Shown in pieces: positions 31,169 through 37,616 of a stretch of DNA of 64,000 nt; positions within the stretch are counted from its first letter, which is position 1, and every line of letters begins with the position of its first letter. The position numbers were made by a program, and so were the translations under genes. This DNA comes from a virus (Duplodnaviria; Heunggongvirae; Uroviricota; Caudoviricetes), in IMG/VR virus record IMGVR_UViG_2541047879_000001; one strand, 5' to 3'. The notes under the pieces are model-generated. The model was not told the DNA's origin. It worked only from the letters and a program-made list of their open reading frames with translations, and searched no databases.

Positions 31169-31377
31169 CGAGATTAAAGACCATTAATTCATATGTGAAT
31201 TGACAGTTTCATGGCACAGGATACGGCTAGCGTGGTTGTCTGTTTTGTGCCAGGGGCGGGCCTAACTAAGTTCACACAACATTGATTATTGAAGATTAGG
31301 TCAGAAATAAATAGGTTATTTTGATAATTTAGTTACGTTAGAATGCCGCAGTGTACAAAGTAAAAATGAGGAATAAT

Positions 31378-32739
31378 ATGACTCGGAGTGAAATAAACGT
31401 CTGGGATAAGAGACGAGGCACCAATAGTCATCGTGTGGAGGAGATTCGATCTGAAGCTCAGCACGACCTTTCTCGACTGATTCACTCGTCTGCTTTCAGA
31501 CGATTGCAATCCAAAACACAGGTTCTTGGTCTGGGTGAAAGTGATTTCTACCGCACACGACTGACTCATTCTATGGAAGTCGCACAAATCGGTTCAGGTC
31601 TTCTTGCTAAGCTGAAAATAAAATATAAAGGTAAAGAGCAAGAGCAATTTTTACCAGATAACGATCTTATGCAGGCAGTATGTCTCGCACATGATATTGG
31701 ACATCCTCCATTTGGTCACGGCGGTGAGGTAGCTCTTAACTACTGTATGCAGGATTACGGTGGTTTTGAAGGAAACGGTCAGACACTTCGCATTCTCTCG
31801 AAACTAGATAAGTATACCGTTGAACACGGACTCGATCCTACACGCAGACTTCTGCTAGGCATACTGAAATATCCGGTTAAATACTCGGATCTAGTGGTTA
31901 CAAAAGACAGAATCCCGGCCACTATCGGATCGCCGAACTGGCTCTTTAAGTCATCTGATTTTAAACCTCCAAAATGCTATCTAGATTCAGAATGCGATGT
32001 TGTAGAATTTGCTCTTTCACCATTTACTGAACAGGATCGGAGGCTTTTTACTTCCGTTGAAGATGGTCAAACTAAATCCGATCATAAAAAAGCTTCTTAT
32101 AAAGCTCTCGATACAACCATCATGGATCTTGCCGATGAAATTTCGTATTCGCTGCACGATTTGGAGGATGCTATTTCTCTCGGAATGGTGACACGAGAAA
32201 TGTGGATGGAGCATTTCAGTGAATATGAAACCCTATTTACTAACTGCCATGGAGAAACATTTTCCGCAACATGTGAATCTGTCGCGGATAGCCTTTTTGG
32301 TGAAAGTTACAAGAGAAAAGAGTGCATCGGGATGCTGGTTCACCTGATGATTACAAGCGTTGAGCTTATTACAAAGAATCCAGCATTCGAATGTGGCATG
32401 CTCAAATATAATGCGGTCCTTCCGGAAGCGGTCGAAGCACTACGGTTGAAAATTTTCAAACTGGTCAAAAATAAAGTAATTAAGCATGAAAATGTACAGC
32501 AGCTTGAATTCAAGGGACAAAAGTTGATTGTTGAGCTTTTCGGTGTGCTGGCTAACGATCCGTGTCGGTTTCTACCGGCATCAACGAGGGAAATTTACGA
32601 GCGGCAGACTAGCTTGGACGAGAAGGCTGGTATGCGAGTCATTTGCGACTATGTTTCAGGGATGACTGATGACTATGCAACAAAGCTTTATGAGAAGATC
32701 CTTATTCCACGCAAAGGGTCTATTTTTGACCATCTCTAA
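31378..32739 (+). CDS. HD-domain dGTP triphosphohydrolase-like protein (Dgt family); candidate antiphage dNTP-depletion enzyme
   Basis: N-terminal SSAFRRLQSKTQV...RLTHSMEVAQIG and HD motif VCLAHDIGHPPFGHGGE matching dGTPase family; start at ATG 31378 with GAGGA 5 nt upstream; AT-rich gene in accessory island. Confidence 0.8.
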   Translation: MTRSEINVWDKRRGTNSHRVEEIRSEAQHDLSRLIHSSAFRRLQSKTQVLGLGESDFYRTRLTHSMEVAQIGSGLLAKLKIKYKGKEQEQFLPDNDLMQAVCLAHDIGHPPFGHGGEVALNYCMQDYGGFEGNGQTLRILSKLDKYTVEHGLDPTRRLLLGILKYPVKYSDLVVTKDRIPATIGSPNWLFKSSDFKPPKCYLDSECDVVEFALSPFTEQDRRLFTSVEDGQTKSDHKKASYKALDTTIMDLADEISYSLHDLEDAISLGMVTREMWMEHFSEYETLFTNCHGETFSATCESVADSLFGESYKRKECIGMLVHLMITSVELITKNPAFECGMLKYNAVLPEAVEALRLKIFKLVKNKVIKHENVQQLEFKGQKLIVELFGVLANDPCRFLPASTREIYERQTSLDEKAGMRVICDYVSGMTDDYATKLYEKILIPRKGSIFDHL

Positions 32740-33149
32740 TGCGGCAAGAATGATGCTCTGAGTTCAATTGACCTATAAACATTAACCAAGGCATCTACCA
32801 GGGGGATATCAAATCCCCCCATTCTGAATTTGTTCGTGCAGAATCGGTGAACGTTCTCATCTGAGCGTTAAACGCCAATAATCGTTGATCTACATTGATC
32901 ATTAATACACCTTAATACCATTAGCGTCTTACTCCGTTATGAGAACAAACGCGAACTGACCTGCCCCCAGTATTAGTGACCTTCAGCTACGGTAACTTGT
33001 CCGCTTCGTGCCAGAAGCGGACATCCATAGAGAAATAAGCGATCAGTTCTTAAATTTGTTGTGATTTTTTGATTTTTTTGTATTCGCAAAGGGATTTGTG
33101 TTGGTTGTATAATTACCTAATATTCATACAGTTGAATGGGAGATGTGGG

Positions 33150-34043
33150 ATGAAGTTCTCGTACAGACATGGTTTTGATCCTGAGTATAATAAAAAGCCG
33201 ATACGGGAAGATGCTCCAGAGTGGCTTCGCTCTTTATTTTTTGTAACTGTCCTCGATAATTTTTTGTACATTGATGGTGATAGCCGCATTACGAATGATG
33301 AGAACAAGCCGTTGGGTATTAAGGCTTTGATCGAGCGACTTTGCGCAGAGAATGGTCAAGAAACAGATCATGAGGATTTCGATTCATGGTACTGCTATGA
33401 TGCTTTGAAAGCGCGTTTGCAACATATGCGTTGGTTTCAATTTTATGATGCTGTTGAGATTATCGGAGATCTATTAAGAAAAAGAGATGTAGAAAGAGGC
33501 CATACTTGGGGTAAGAAGGCATTAGAAGACATTACTTTTACATCATATCGTCAGAAATTGAACGAGTTATTCGCATCTCGAAATATTGACTGGAAAATGA
33601 ATTCTGCTGGTAGGTTAGAAACACCACTACCAAATGAATTAGAACAAAAAATCGATGAAACTAACAACTTATTGCAAGACCAGTTTGAACCTGCAAGGAG
33701 GCACTATGTGAAAGCCCGGGCTTTTGCATTAGGTGCGCATAAGGATCCAGAAAATTCCATAAAAGAATCAATAAGTGCAATAGAAAGCATGTGTCGGACT
33801 TATTATCCTTCAGCCTCAACCTTGGGCGATGTATTAAAACTGATGAGAAAAGAAAACACTATCTCACCTATGCTTTTAACGGTGATAGAGAAATTTTACG
33901 CTTATACAAATGCAGAGCCAGCAGTAAGACATGGTAGCAACAAGGTTTCTTCTGTCTTGGAATACGATGCTGAATTCGTGTTGCATATATCAGCAGCATT
34001 TATTAGAACAATAATACAAAGAAAAGCTGTTTTGGATAACTAA
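33150..34043 (+). CDS. Hypothetical protein, possibly Abi-like (helical, contains Rx6H motif RAFALGAH)
   Basis: Start at ATG 33150 (MKFSYRHGFDPEY...) preceded by candidate -10 TATAAT (33108-33113); AT-rich; domain assignment unverified. Confidence 0.5.
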   Translation: MKFSYRHGFDPEYNKKPIREDAPEWLRSLFFVTVLDNFLYIDGDSRITNDENKPLGIKALIERLCAENGQETDHEDFDSWYCYDALKARLQHMRWFQFYDAVEIIGDLLRKRDVERGHTWGKKALEDITFTSYRQKLNELFASRNIDWKMNSAGRLETPLPNELEQKIDETNNLLQDQFEPARRHYVKARAFALGAHKDPENSIKESISAIESMCRTYYPSASTLGDVLKLMRKENTISPMLLTVIEKFYAYTNAEPAVRHGSNKVSSVLEYDAEFVLHISAAFIRTIIQRKAVLDN

Positions 34044-34283
34044 GTCAGACTTACAGCCAACTGACTGTCTCTTATTATTCAAAACATAATAATGTTAGGT
34101 CCGCTTATCGCACATCAGGGACAACCATACTCAAATCTCCCACATTGCAGGAGATTTGAGTGTGAACACGTCACCGTGGAACAAAGACTGTATCATCGGT
34201 CAAAAAAGACCTGGTTATCTAGCAAAAACTTTTAACATACCAACAAACTTAATTTATTTAAATGCTATTAATACAACTAATGT

Positions 34284-35510
34284 TTAAAATATATATTTTA
34301 TATCAACCCAATTTTTAGCATTATTGTCAACTAAAGTAACGCTATGTCCATGACTTGAATTTATAGCATCGATTACTGATTGTGATGGGTGTCCATGTGA
34401 ATGACCATCCGACTGAGCTATAAACAAAACATTATCAAAATCCGCAATTATTTTTTGATTGAAATTTAATTCCGAACCATGATGAGGTAATGTCATCACC
34501 CTTACCGTTTTAATCACTTTTGAATAGAATTCAGCCCATTTATTATAATACAATGATGTATTAAGCTTTGAGTCACCTGTTAATAAAACAGATCTAATTC
34601 CTTTATCTCTATCAAAGAGAAAATGTCGCTCAACCCGACTATTTCTAAAACTAAACCACTCACGAGAAGGCTCATTAACAATTTTCATCTCAGCTTCTTG
34701 ATTATTAATAATCAAGAGATTGATTGATATTACATTATGATCGCCAGCAAGTTTTAAATAACACTCGCGTAATTTCTTTCTTTCCCCCGTGCTAGTTAAT
34801 ATTTTAAGCATTTTTTTCTTACTTAACTCAGTAAAACCATTTTCTATTAACTGCTGACTGAAAATTTCAATTTTCTTACGTGAACGGGGCGGTATCCAAG
34901 AAATAAATGACATTAGTGTATCAGTTTTGTTTTCCCCAATCCTTTTAACCAACCAACGGTTACATTCAACATCTCCTTTGGAGTCAGATATTTTCATTGG
35001 TAAGCTTACAGCGCTATCCTTAATGTTTTCACTATTAAATATAGGAGGGTCAAAATTATCATCAATATCACAGGGGTAAAGCAAAGATATATCTGCCTCA
35101 GGCAACCTTGATTTTATCCATTTGACAGGATCAATGAGAAATTCCATAAAAAGACCTGACGTAGAATTAGAGCATAGCTCCGATGCAATTAAGTAATAGC
35201 TATCATGGATATCTAGGTATGGTAATACAACCTTGCGTATTTTGTTATCTACAAGCTGACATAAATGGTCAAATCCATTTATATGGTCTGAATCCAAATG
35301 AGAGATGTATACCACATCAATATATTTCTCATCAATATTAAAGAGAGATTTAGCCACATCCATCTCCCTACGCAACGCATTTAATTGGTCACTTCCGCAG
35401 TCATACACATAACTGTAAAGCAAACTACCATCCCTTCCCCTCAGTCCGCCTAAACTAAATCCACCCTGGCCAACGGGAAACAATCTTTTATGAAATACTT
35501 CTCCGCTCAT
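34284..35510 (-). CDS. Standalone metallo-beta-lactamase-fold hydrolase (ComEC/Rec2-type MBL domain, putative nuclease)
   Basis: 408 aa; motifs PVGQGG, HLDSDHINGF (HxDxDH-type metal site) and LPHHGS characteristic of the ComEC-type MBL domain; no TM segments; AT-rich. Confidence 0.7.
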   Translation of the reverse strand: MSGEVFHKRLFPVGQGGFSLGGLRGRDGSLLYSYVYDCGSDQLNALRREMDVAKSLFNIDEKYIDVVYISHLDSDHINGFDHLCQLVDNKIRKVVLPYLDIHDSYYLIASELCSNSTSGLFMEFLIDPVKWIKSRLPEADISLLYPCDIDDNFDPPIFNSENIKDSAVSLPMKISDSKGDVECNRWLVKRIGENKTDTLMSFISWIPPRSRKKIEIFSQQLIENGFTELSKKKMLKILTSTGERKKLRECYLKLAGDHNVISINLLIINNQEAEMKIVNEPSREWFSFRNSRVERHFLFDRDKGIRSVLLTGDSKLNTSLYYNKWAEFYSKVIKTVRVMTLPHHGSELNFNQKIIADFDNVLFIAQSDGHSHGHPSQSVIDAINSSHGHSVTLVDNNAKNWVDIKYIF

Positions 35511-36224
35511 ATATCCTTCTTACACCCTAACGTGATCATAAAATTGTCTTAAAGTTAAGTTTAAAGCTAAAAAGTCACAGCTCATTCCAACTCGTGAGCA
35601 ATAGGAATGTATATTCAATCAGTTAGAGGATCAACCCGATTTTCTCTAATGAGATTTCGCAACGCAGTACGAACAGCAGCTACTTCTGCCATCTCATTAA
35701 CAACCACACTGGACTACAATCCCCTAAGTTCTACAGACTGTAACCATATCCTCTTCACAGAAATAATCTGATTAATGCTGAAGGTCATCTTTCTCGACGC
35801 GAATGTATGACATAACAACCTCAGTTAATTATCTTTCGATAGAAAAATACCTTCACAAAAGGTTTAAGCAACCCATCACAAGACAACACGCTAAGCTTGC
35901 CTTGTAAGCGTCCTGCTTAACCGAACAGTTCGCTTTCAGAGGATCTCCGGAGAACAGCTCCGATGCCTTATAAGGCCAATGCTCGCTCCTCGCTCACTGC
36001 GGACCTAAGGTTTGGTCAGCTTGTTCGCACTCTGCCAAAAGCGGGAGTTACTCCCATTCGGTGTTAATCAATGTAGAGCAGATCAATCAACGACAAAGAA
36101 AATGAGAGGCATATCACTACTCATATGAAAATTATTGTAGTAAAGTGAGCCGTAAGTTCATCATTTATAAATCATATAGCATATATGTTATATCAATTTT
36201 AATTTAAATGGCAGAATAATTACC

Positions 36225-36929
36225 ATGGAAAAAATTAAAACTCCTTGTCCATATTGTAAAGGTGAAAAAAATTGCCACATAATAGGCCATAAAAAAAGAG
36301 AATGGAGTGAGGATGATGGGGGCAACTATTTTTGGGCTGAAAGTGAATACAAATTATTAGAGTGTATGGGGTGCGACGGAATATTTACATATATTAAATC
36401 CCGTCACAGTGAAGATTACGACATTGAAAGAGATGAGTCAGGCTATGATTGTATGGTATATAACTATCATATATCAACATATCCCACTCAAGAGCAAGAA
36501 GAGATTAGACCAACTTGGTTTGGTGAGACATTAAACAAAGATCGTCAGCTGTATGTAATAATGAACGAAATGTACATCGCATTTCAAAATAAATCATTCA
36601 TTTTAGCGGCGATTGGACTTAGAACTATTTTTGACAGAACAGTTGAGGTTCTAAATATTCATCCAGGATATACATTAGGCCAGAAGGTTGACATTCTTAA
36701 AGAGGAAGGTTTTATTGGGGAAACAGAAAGGAGCCAACTTAAAATTGTAACCGAAGCTGGCAACTCAGCTGCACACAGGACATGGGCACCGAACGAAACT
36801 GAATTTAAATCGCTTTTGGTAATTATAGAAAATTTTGTAATGCGAACAATACTAAAAAATGAGGATATATTTAAGATTACAGAAAAATTACCTGCGAAAT
36901 ATCCAAGACCTCCCAAAAAGCAAGAATAA
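36225..36929 (+). CDS. Zinc-ribbon / DUF4145-like (HEPN-superfamily-like) protein
   Basis: 234 aa; N-terminal CPYC...CMGC zinc ribbon; C-terminal AAIGLRTIFDRTVE...GNSAAHRTW resembling DUF4145; AT-rich. Confidence 0.6.
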   Translation: MEKIKTPCPYCKGEKNCHIIGHKKREWSEDDGGNYFWAESEYKLLECMGCDGIFTYIKSRHSEDYDIERDESGYDCMVYNYHISTYPTQEQEEIRPTWFGETLNKDRQLYVIMNEMYIAFQNKSFILAAIGLRTIFDRTVEVLNIHPGYTLGQKVDILKEEGFIGETERSQLKIVTEAGNSAAHRTWAPNETEFKSLLVIIENFVMRTILKNEDIFKITEKLPAKYPRPPKKQE

Positions 36930-37367
36930 TGTACGTAAGTGTAAATAGAGCTAAGAGATTATATATTGACTCTGGTTATCTCTATTAGCACATGCTTTTT
37001 GTAATGCCTTAACTGATTATTTAAACTCCTGTCAGCTTTTCGCTCAAAGCGGACTAAAGTGTTGGCTTGTGACTGACTTAGCGCATTTAAGGAAGTGGTG
37101 GTGGTGACGGGGTGTTGTGTCCCATTTCCACAGAATAAATCAGAGAAACTATAGCGGCTGTAATGGCAATCTATGGTCTTGCTATTGCTCTTATGGATCA
37201 CCTTTCTGATTGATTTCATATTGGCGAGGTAACGGGAGTTAAGTAGAATAGCTGCGGGTGCTTGAGGCTGTCTGCCTCGGGCATGAACACCAAAGGCAGA
37301 TAGAGAAAAGCCCCAGTTAACATTACGCGTCCGGCAAGACGCTTAACATTAATCTGAGGCCACATCT

Positions 37368-37616
37368 ATGCTTTGCATACGTAGATTAGCCTCTTACCGA
37401 CCAAAAGGTCAAGGAGAAGCAGGCTATGAAGCAGCAAAAGGCGATGTTAATCACCCTGATCGTCATCTGTTTAACCGTTATAGTGACGGTACTGGTAACG
37501 AGGAAAGACCTCTGCGAGGTACGAATCCGAACCGACCAGACGGAGGTCGCTGTCTTCACAGCTTACGAACTTGGGGAGTAAGAGGACCAGCGGGGAGAAA
37601 TCCCCGCAACCTCTGA
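37368..37616 (+). CDS. mok: mok-like overlapping reading frame of hok locus
   Basis: 82-aa frame starting 58 nt upstream of hok and overlapping it in another frame, as in hok/sok loci. Confidence 0.45.
   Translation: MLCIRRLASYRPKGQGEAGYEAAKGDVNHPDRHLFNRYSDGTGNEERPLRGTNPNRPDGGRCLHSLRTWGVRGPAGRNPRNL
37426..37581 (+). CDS. hok: Hok/Gef-family type I toxin
   Basis: Own translation MKQQKAMLITLIVICLTVIVTVLVTRKDLCEVRIRTDQTEVAVFTAYELGE (51 aa, below track cutoff), near-identical to E. coli Hok proteins; SD AAGGAG upstream; 3' hairpin GCGGGGA-GAAA-TCCCCGC at 37590-37607. Confidence 0.85.
   Translation: MKQQKAMLITLIVICLTVIVTVLVTRKDLCEVRIRTDQTEVAVFTAYELGE

What the first reader, a model, noticed from the sequence alone, without database searches (positions are those of the whole stretch)
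36225..36929. Zinc-ribbon + DUF4145-like (HEPN-superfamily-like) single-gene unit
N-terminal CPYC...CMGC zinc ribbon fused to a helical C-terminal domain with the GNSAAH motif that I associate with DUF4145, a family linked to restriction and abortive-infection loci. It is divergently oriented from the MBL gene across a 715-bp ORF-free spacer, which may indicate co-regulation or a shared system.
Basis: partly seen in the sequence, partly recalled or inferred. Interest (0 to 1): 0.65.

Follow-up and report, generated by a model that had tools for sequence, protein, structure and literature searches.

The report
Prophage zinc-ribbon HEPN defence gene
This is a real, self-contained prophage cargo gene for a zinc-ribbon plus HEPN (DUF4145) protein, built like the recently solved anti-phage RNase RAZR but from a separate, untested clade that lacks RAZR's catalytic arginine, and it is unrelated to the neighbouring MBL gene.

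Summary

The window is an E. coli Rac-type prophage. RefSeq already labels the product "DUF4145 domain-containing protein".

The gene travels as a ~1-kb cassette (36032-37055, with its own leader). The same cassette sits in two other E. coli prophages, one at the P2 Z/fun position. Relatives form a large family: 1440 clusters at E<1e-10.

The MBL link is not supported. None of 129 other loci has an MBL gene within 10 kb. The MBL gene is itself a separate cassette (34211-36006) found elsewhere without a DUF4145 gene. The "715-bp spacer" is two cassette leaders placed back to back.

The closest known system is RAZR/PD-T7-4 (Nature 2026), which has the same N-terminal zinc ribbon and C-terminal DUF4145 RNase. 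This clade differs from it:
- it fails the PADLOC PD-T7-4 model;
- its profile does not find the RAZR chain in the PDB;
- it has T/V/I where RAZR has the essential Arg.

The most likely function is a single-protein abortive-infection nuclease. This is inferred, not shown. Interest is moderate.

The parts
36032..36224 (+). 5' leader of the cassette, with the presumed native promoter and a GGGAG-TTA-CTCCC hairpin at its left edge. It is conserved together with the gene.
   Evidence: Alignment of the window with EC11 (L004) and the O121 P2-like prophage (L005). Similarity starts abruptly near window 36032 and continues into the CDS. The consensus promoter scan found no strong site here.
36225..36482 (+). 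Residues 1-86: beta-rich Cys4 zinc-ribbon domain, the presumed sensor. C8 is at 36246-36248, C11 at 36255-36257, C47 at 36363-36365 and C50 at 36372-36374. The conserved S62-E63-D64 lies here.
   Evidence: The four Cys are at least 94% conserved in 145 family members. The AF2 model has beta-hairpins flanking both CxxC knuckles. This is the most variable domain: 27% mean pairwise identity against 42% for the HEPN domain.
36483..36542 (+). Residues 87-106: interdomain linker with near-invariant P87, P96 and W98.
   Evidence: Family alignment A2.
36543..36854 (+). Residues 107-210: DUF4145 / HEPN-fold helical domain, the presumed nuclease. Invariant R133 and H184 (36774-36776). Near-invariant T134, D137, K154, A178, G179, R185, W187, P189 and E202. 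T176 sits where RAZR and canonical DUF4145 proteins have Arg.
36855..36929 (+). Residues 211-234 plus the stop codon: low-confidence basic C-terminal tail (P223 conserved, then K/R-P-P-K-K).
   Evidence: pLDDT is below 55 from residue 211. P223 is conserved in 141 of 145 members.
36930..37055 (+). 3' trailer of the cassette, ending in an imperfect hairpin (GTCAGCTTT-TCGCTC-AAAGCGGAC). It is conserved with the gene in the other two prophage contexts.
   Evidence: Alignment A3. Similarity decays after about window 37055. The consensus scan found no intrinsic terminator.

Best explanation
The gene encodes a stand-alone, two-domain protein carried as a roughly 1-kb AT-rich cargo cassette that moves between prophage accessory-gene hotspots. 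Its most likely role is a single-protein, abortive-infection-type anti-phage nuclease.

Proposed steps:
1. The variable N-terminal Cys4 zinc-ribbon domain recognises something made by an infecting phage. By analogy with RAZR this would be a phage protein assembly.
2. That contact is passed through the conserved Pro/Trp linker.
3. It changes the oligomeric arrangement of the C-terminal DUF4145 (HEPN-fold) domains so that a composite active site forms around the invariant His184.
4. RNA is cut, translation stops, and the superinfecting phage fails. This protects the lysogen population and the resident prophage.

Shown here: the domain architecture, the HEPN fold, the conservation pattern, purifying selection, cassette mobility, residence in prophage hotspots, and independence from any partner gene.

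Inferred only: the anti-phage role, the RNase activity, the nature of the trigger and the oligomeric switch.

The active site cannot be the same as RAZR's. The Arg eight residues before the His (RAZR R146, essential for defence) is T/V/I in this whole clade. The invariant R133 and the near-invariant R185 (in the motif H-R-G-W-x-P) are the candidate substitutes.
For: - Architecture and fold.
- RAZR/PD-T7-4 has the same layout: an N-terminal Cys4 zinc ribbon and a C-terminal DUF4145. It is an Abi-type single-stranded-RNA nuclease. Its zinc-finger domain sets phage specificity and is its most variable part (PMC13017515). Here too the zinc-ribbon domain is the more variable one.
- Contexts: the P2 Z/fun position in an O121 prophage. 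The Z/fun locus is cited as a defence locus in PMC13586616; its location between genes G and FI is my own knowledge. Other contexts are a Rac hotspot shared with an anti-phage dGTPase and PDC-S32, about 26 Pseudomonas P2-like prophages between gpS and gpV, and 11 Sphingomonadales loci beside a type IIG restriction enzyme and GajA. There are 47 IMG/VR viral contigs.
- No conserved partner gene.
- GC content is 34.5% against 47.8% for the window.
- dN/dS is 0.15-0.19.
Against: - There is no experimental datum for this clade.
- The query has no PADLOC v2 hit and no NCBIfam hit. The PD-T7-4 model matches only 4 of 145 family members, best E=0.021.
- The canonical HEPN arginine is absent (G179 at -5, T176 at -8), so catalysis is not assured.
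- Known defence genes are rare among immediate neighbours outside a few lineages.
- The gene is rare in E. coli (14 of 5426 complete genomes). It is inactivated by a frameshift or an IS1 insertion in three of them.
- PHROGs labels its family 'DNA binding protein'.
Confidence: 0.55

Rival explanations
1. It is a true RAZR orthologue. It would work exactly as described for PD-T7-4: linear oligomers curve into a 24-mer ring around phage portal or Erf-type rings, and this turns on non-specific cleavage of single-stranded RNA.
For: The domain order is the same. The catalytic His, an interdomain linker and a variable zinc-finger domain are all present. Very divergent full-length homologues do exist that simple searches miss: the L108 paralogue aligns to the family by hhalign at E=6e-20.
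Confidence: 0.15
2. The HEPN-fold domain is not a nuclease. The protein would then be a zinc-dependent nucleic-acid-binding or nucleotide-binding regulator carried by phages (a moron with a regulatory or exclusion role), as the PHROG label 'DNA binding protein' suggests.
Against: H184 and R133 are invariant, and D137, K154, R185, W187 and E202 are more than 90% conserved, across members only 25-40% identical. This pattern fits an active site better than a binding surface. The placement in hotspots matches known defence cargo.
Confidence: 0.15
3. It is the toxin of an addiction-type (toxin-antitoxin-like) module that stabilises the prophage. An unannotated cis-encoded RNA antitoxin would lie in the conserved leader or trailer.
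For: HEPN toxins are common in toxin-antitoxin systems (HepT/MntA appear among the fold hits). The cassette keeps about 190 bp upstream and 125 bp downstream conserved. It sits next to a hok/sok locus.
Against: Rfam finds no family in the flanks. No conserved small ORF or partner gene was found. Frameshifted alleles persist with the flanks intact, and this neither requires nor indicates an antitoxin.
Confidence: 0.1
4. It forms a two-gene system with the divergently transcribed MBL-fold hydrolase, sharing the 715-bp control region.
For: The two genes are adjacent and divergent in this window. In E. coli complete genomes the MBL gene occurs only in this Rac variant: 10 genomes, 9 of them with the DUF4145 gene.
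Against: All those E. coli genomes carry one 99.8%-identical lineage, so they count as a single observation. None of 129 other family loci has an MBL homologue within 10 kb. MBL homologues in Enterobacter, Proteus and a CP4-57-like island have no DUF4145 gene nearby. Each gene has its own cassette boundary inside the spacer, at 36006 and 36032.
Confidence: 0.03

Closest known systems
RAZR (PD-T7-4), the ring-activated zinc-finger RNase of E. coli UMB1727 (Vassallo 2022, PMC9519451; Zhang et al. 2026, PMC13017515)
   Same: Single-gene system of about 220-235 aa. N-terminal Cys4 zinc ribbon, conserved linker, C-terminal DUF4145 domain with a HEPN fold. The conserved His lies about 75 residues into the helical domain. 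The zinc-ribbon domain is the most variable part. Both are carried on mobile DNA in E. coli.
   Different: The PADLOC PD-T7-4 model gives no match. The family profile does not retrieve the RAZR chain from the PDB. The Arg eight residues before the His (R146, essential in RAZR) is T/V/I here. The zinc-ribbon domain is about 20 residues longer. Nothing is known about phenotype, trigger or oligomeric state. The RAZR sequence could not be obtained, so no direct alignment was made.
DS-38 (DefensePredictor, WP_001313577.1) and HEC-08 (Payne et al. 2024)
   Same: Validated single-protein anti-phage systems that combine a HEPN nuclease domain with zinc-binding modules.
   Different: The domain order is reversed: the HEPN domain (DUF3644 in HEC-08; for DS-38 a canonical HEPN motif, read from its sequence) is N-terminal and several zinc fingers are C-terminal. 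They are 366 aa or longer, and HEC-08 has a canonical Rx4-6H motif. The query does not match any PADLOC model.
Generic DUF4145 (PF13643) HEPN family as defined by Anantharaman et al. 2013 (PMC3710099)
   Same: It passes the Pfam threshold. That paper already lists a zinc-ribbon fusion among DUF4145 architectures, and links the family to restriction-modification and Abi contexts.
   Different: This clade belongs to the roughly 20% of the family without the conserved Arg of the motif. It has its own signature, A-G-[SN]-A-A-A-H-R-G-W-x-P.
BxaP (BREX-associated DUF4145 protein, PMC10799925)
   Same: A DUF4145 domain protein shown to protect against phage T4.
   Different: In BxaP the DUF4145 domain is N-terminal, is followed by a HEAT-like domain, and has no zinc ribbon. 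BxaP is embedded in BREX loci.
HepT/MntA-type HEPN toxins (e.g. 5YEP, 7AE2)
   Different: They are two-gene toxin-antitoxin systems controlled by AMPylation. They have a canonical Rx4H motif and no zinc-ribbon sensor.

Membership tests
Pfam DUF4145 (PF13643) | Score above the curated gathering threshold of the family model | tested here: met
   43.6 bits against a cut-off of 23.1, E=3.2e-11, residues 115-201 on model positions 2-87 of 88.
HEPN superfamily | Four-helix up-and-down HEPN fold | tested here: met
HEPN superfamily | Rx4-6H catalytic motif | tested here: not met
   His184 is invariant. Positions -4 to -7 are N/S, G, A and E/D, and position -8 is T/V/I. No Arg lies upstream of the His on that helix in 145 members.
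RAZR / PD-T7-4 | N-terminal Cys4 zinc-ribbon domain | tested here: met
   C8, C11, C47 and C50 are at least 94% conserved. Both CxxC knuckles lie between beta strands in the model.
RAZR / PD-T7-4 | C-terminal DUF4145 domain with the catalytic His (H154 in RAZR) | tested here: met
   H184 is invariant in 145 of 145 members.
RAZR / PD-T7-4 | Catalytic Arg eight residues before the His (R146; R146A abolishes defence) | tested here: not met
   T176 in the query, T/V/I across the clade. A divergent paralogue (L108) has Arg in exactly that aligned column.
RAZR / PD-T7-4 | Match to the family's sequence model or to the solved protein | tested here: not met
   PADLOC PDLC04109 gives no hit for the query, and 4 of 145 members hit with a best E of 0.021. 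The profile A2 against PDB sequences does not find RAZR at E up to 10, although 9Y6U and 9Y9C are present.
RAZR / PD-T7-4 | Abortive-infection phage defence and cleavage of single-stranded RNA | not testable with these tools
   This needs plaque assays and in vitro nuclease assays.
RAZR / PD-T7-4 | Activation by assembling as a 24-mer around phage ring proteins (portal, Erf-like Gp77) | not testable with these tools
   No multimer prediction or experiment was available.
   None of 129 family loci has an MBL gene within 10 kb. None of 5 loci carrying an MBL homologue has a DUF4145 gene.

The most novel reading that the evidence does not exclude
This clade (H-R-G-W-x-P signature, no Arg at -8, an enlarged zinc-ribbon domain) is a distinct, widespread single-protein immune sensor that current defence catalogues miss. 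It would use a non-canonical HEPN active site, with His184 working together with Arg185 and/or Arg133. Its different zinc-ribbon domain would recognise a different class of phage structures from RAZR. That would show that 'zinc ribbon + DUF4145' is a general and diversifiable sensor-effector chassis.
Probability: 0.35. Interest if true: 0.55.

Novelty: new variant of a known kind. Interest (0 to 1): 0.4.

Why it matters
If the cassette does defend against phages, the RAZR principle would extend from one characterised protein to a much larger and sequence-distinct family: at least 1440 clusters at 50% identity, mostly Proteobacteria, many in prophages. The PADLOC and NCBIfam libraries searched here do not recognise that family. 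It would also give a natural test of how a HEPN site works without its signature arginine, and of how exchanging the zinc-ribbon domain retargets the sensor. In practical terms, the analysis shows that this Rac hotspot is a string of independent one-gene cassettes (dGTPase, AbiJ-like, MBL, ZnR-DUF4145, hok/sok) and not an operon-like system.

Tried and rejected
1. Getting the RAZR sequence for a direct alignment. These all failed:
- Searches of PDB sequences with the query and with profiles A1 and A2.
- Screening all 271 retrieved proteins for a fingerprint of published RAZR residues.
- The supplements of three papers.
I did confirm that 9Y6U and 9Y9C are in the PDB copy, through Gp77, so the negative sequence searches carry weight.

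2. DS-38 as a possible identity. Rejected: it is a 366-aa protein with the opposite domain order.

3. MBL partnership. Rejected.

4. H10-H13, where the two genes appear separated in E. coli. These are IS3- and IS1-mediated deletions or insertions, not natural modularity, so I did not use them as evidence.

5. An RNA element in the spacer. Rfam finds only sok, further downstream. RNAalifold on four copies of the MBL leader gave too little covariation to decide.

6. The promoter and terminator consensus scan of the flanks gave nothing above the shuffled expectation.

7. The AFDB Foldseek library was not available.

8. tblastn of the protein against GenBank phages found nothing at E of 1e-5 or better, although IMG/VR holds 47 loci.

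Full report
**What is there**

The ORF at window 36225-36929 (+) exists as described. It has 234 codons, an ATG start, C8-P-Y-C11 and C47-M-G-C50 knuckles, and G179-N-S-A-A-H184. Pfam DUF4145 matches residues 115-201 at E=3.2e-11, 43.6 bits against a cut-off of 23.1. PHROG 1305 matches the whole length at E=5e-29. An AlphaFold2 model built on 14 homologues (pLDDT 83) shows four parts:
- a beta-rich domain at residues 1-86;
- a linker at 87-106;
- a helical domain at 107-210;
- a disordered basic tail.

**Where it sits**

The window is an E. coli Rac-type lambdoid prophage, with recET, racC, kilR and ydaT-ydaV upstream, and hok/sok, DUF1367, YbcO, a Q-like gene and lysis genes downstream. RefSeq annotates the product as WP_029798703.1, "DUF4145 domain-containing protein".

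Between the replication module and hok/sok lies a row of low-GC cargo genes:

| Gene | Evidence | GC |
|---|---|---|
| anti-phage dGTPase | PADLOC E=9e-145 | 43% |
| AbiJ-like protein | PDC-S32, E=1e-33 | 38% |
| MBL-fold hydrolase | Pfam Lactamase_B | 34% |
| this gene | Pfam DUF4145 | 35% |
| whole window | – | 47.8% |

The gene is rare in E. coli. It occurs in 14 of 5426 complete genomes, and 12 of those carry this same Rac variant.

**The unit of inheritance**

The two divergent E. coli alleles lie in quite different prophages. One follows the pinE invertase at the end of a tail-fibre region (EC11, L004). The other lies between the tail-fibre assembly gene and the tail-sheath gene of a P2-like prophage of an O121 strain (L005). 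That is the position of the P2 Z/fun locus; the position itself is my own knowledge, and PMC13586616 names Z/fun as a defence locus.

Alignment shows that similarity begins abruptly near window 36032, which is 193 bp before the ATG. It fades after about 37055. So a roughly 1-kb cassette, made of leader, gene and trailer, is what moves.

**The MBL question**

From the MBL side, blastn shows that window 34211-36006 recurs at 84-90% identity in three unrelated places. This block is the MBL CDS plus a 496-nt upstream leader. The three places are:
- the end of an Enterobacter cloacae prophage;
- a Proteus lambdoid prophage, between Q and the lysis genes;
- a CP4-57-like island.

None of them has a DUF4145 gene.

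From the other side, I collected 80 genome loci and 47 IMG/VR loci that encode family members, plus the two divergent E. coli loci. None of these 129 loci has a homologue of the MBL, AbiJ-like or dGTPase genes within 10 kb.

The 714-bp "spacer" is therefore two cassette leaders back to back, with a junction of about 25 bp. The co-occurrence in E. coli is one clonal lineage at 99.8% identity and counts as a single observation. The apparent separations in strains E1, ET490 and ET979 are IS-mediated.

**The family**

A profile search of 1.84 billion cluster representatives gives 279 hits at E<1e-30, 1440 at E<1e-10 and 2722 at E<1e-3. Most of the best 150 are 210-260 aa and match end to end. In a 145-member alignment the conservation is as follows:
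- invariant: C47, R133 and H184;
- at least 90% conserved: C8, C11, G49, C50, P87, P96, W98, T134, D137, K154, A178, G179, A181-A183, R185, W187, P189, E202 and P223.

The zinc-ribbon domain is more variable than the HEPN domain, at 27% against 42% mean pairwise identity.

The hosts are mainly Gamma-, Beta- and Alphaproteobacteria, with a few Bacteroidota, Acidobacteriota, Chloroflexota and cyanobacterial loci.

Recurrent contexts are:
- about 26 Pseudomonas P2-like prophages, with the gene inserted between gpS and baseplate gene gpV;
- 11 Sphingomonadales loci, next to a type IIG restriction enzyme (DrmMI-like) and GajA.

I also sampled 150 proteins at two genes either side, from 76 dereplicated loci. 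No family occurred more than 7 times. The top families were P2 tail and baseplate genes, resolvases and transposases. Only a handful matched PADLOC models. This is a single-gene element associated with mobile DNA. It is not tightly embedded in classical defence islands.

**Comparison with what is known**

Anantharaman et al. 2013 placed DUF4145 in the HEPN superfamily. They listed zinc-ribbon fusions, and noted that the Rx4-6H motif is conserved in about 80% of members.

The architecture has one characterised prototype, PD-T7-4, found in a functional screen and renamed RAZR. Its properties are:
- an N-terminal Cys4 zinc-ribbon domain that binds ring-shaped phage proteins (the T7 portal and the Erf-like Gp77);
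- a conserved linker;
- a C-terminal DUF4145 RNase with essential R146 and H154;
- activation as a 24-mer, followed by non-specific cleavage of single-stranded RNA and abortive infection.

The present protein shares the layout, the His, a conserved linker and a variable zinc-ribbon domain. It fails the membership tests that could be run:
- The PADLOC PD-T7-4 model does not match it, and matches only 4 of 145 family members, with a best E of 0.021.
- The family profile does not retrieve the RAZR chain at E up to 10, although 9Y6U and 9Y9C are in the database. I checked this with Gp77, which hits at E=1e-142.
- The residue eight positions before the His is T176, and T/V/I across the clade.

That this column is where Arg belongs is shown by a second, very divergent zinc-ribbon-DUF4145 gene found by chance in viral contig L108. 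It passes Pfam DUF4145 (46 bits). It aligns to the family over both CxxC pairs, the SED motif and the HEPN domain (hhalign probability 99.2%, E=6e-20). It reads E-H-R-F-M-G-N-E-A-V-H, with Arg in exactly that column. It too is missed by the PD-T7-4 model and by a PDB search. So "zinc ribbon + DUF4145" is a deep superfamily with several clades. Whether RAZR is another of its clades remains open, because I could not obtain the RAZR sequence.

DS-38 and HEC-08 are validated HEPN-plus-zinc-finger systems with the reverse domain order. BxaP is a DUF4145-HEAT protein of BREX loci.

**Mechanism**

The best-supported reading is a single-protein sensor-effector. The zinc-ribbon domain senses a phage product, and the HEPN domains are rearranged into an active nuclease that arrests translation. 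The fold, the conservation pattern and the contexts are shown here. The activity, the trigger and the oligomeric switch are inferred from RAZR.

Because the signature Arg is missing, either R185 (H-R-G-W-x-P) or the invariant R133 completes the site, or the domain is not a nuclease. I give 0.55 to the defence-nuclease model, and 0.15 to strict RAZR orthology as a narrower version of it. I give 0.15 to a non-catalytic role, 0.10 to a toxin-antitoxin-like module and 0.03 to an MBL partnership.

**Verdict**

DUF4145/HEPN and the single-gene unit hold; the MBL link does not.
- The gene is already annotated at the domain level, and its architecture has a well-studied prototype, so a specialist would not be surprised by it.
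- What is new is a large, untested clade with an altered active site and a different zinc-ribbon domain. I rate it a new variant of a known kind, with interest 0.4.

Noticed in passing
window 34211-36006 (minus strand); leader 35511-36006: The MBL-fold hydrolase gene is itself a mobile one-gene cassette. It has a 496-nt upstream leader that stays 84-90% identical in three unrelated mobile elements (Enterobacter, Proteus, a CP4-57-like island). The leader has no conserved ORF and no Rfam match. It may be a long structured 5' UTR or a non-coding RNA partner. The protein gives weak PADLOC hits to MBL components of Lamassu, DRT, Avs1 and PDC-M48.
   Followed up: partly
window 33147-34043 (+): An AbiJ-like protein. 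Its N-terminal domain matches AbiJ_NTD4. The full length matches the PADLOC candidate PDC-S32 at E=1e-33. It lies between the dGTPase and the MBL cassette.
   Followed up: partly
window 31351-32739 (+): An anti-phage dGTPase (PADLOC dGTPase E=9e-145; HD + HD_assoc domains). It is the first cargo gene of the same Rac hotspot.
   Followed up: no
window 36265-36271 (A7 run in codons 14-16); locus L003 7373-8076: Frog-derived strains ET490 and ET670 carry the gene with a -1 frameshift in this A7 run. Strain ET979 has an IS1 insertion in the gene. The truncated 158-aa product (P0008) is recorded on 122 contigs. Loss-of-function alleles therefore circulate.
   Followed up: partly
L108 4504-5262 (minus strand): One IMG/VR contig carries two very divergent zinc-ribbon-DUF4145 genes about 5 kb apart. 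One belongs to the clade studied here. The other has the canonical Arg eight residues before the His. Neither matches the PD-T7-4 model.
   Followed up: partly
proteins P0081, P0082, P0113, P0123, P0145 and similar (family members of 360-507 aa): Some family members have an extra 100-280 aa N-terminal extension. It gives weak zinc-ribbon-type matches (Lar-like, NMD3-like), which suggests tandem zinc-ribbon sensor modules.
   Followed up: partly
window 37256-37581 (+): A hok/sok type I toxin-antitoxin locus lies immediately downstream of the cassette (Rfam sok 105 bits; Hok ORF at 37426-37581). DNA from about 37056 onward is shared at 90-95% identity with more than 4000 E. coli genomes.
   Followed up: no
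window 35854-35945; loci L002, L003 and hit H3: The spacer between the two cassettes is a repeated target for IS elements: IS3 in strain E1, and IS1A in ET490 and PRO_A-1462. These insertions produced the deletions that make the two genes look separable in E. coli.
   Followed up: partly
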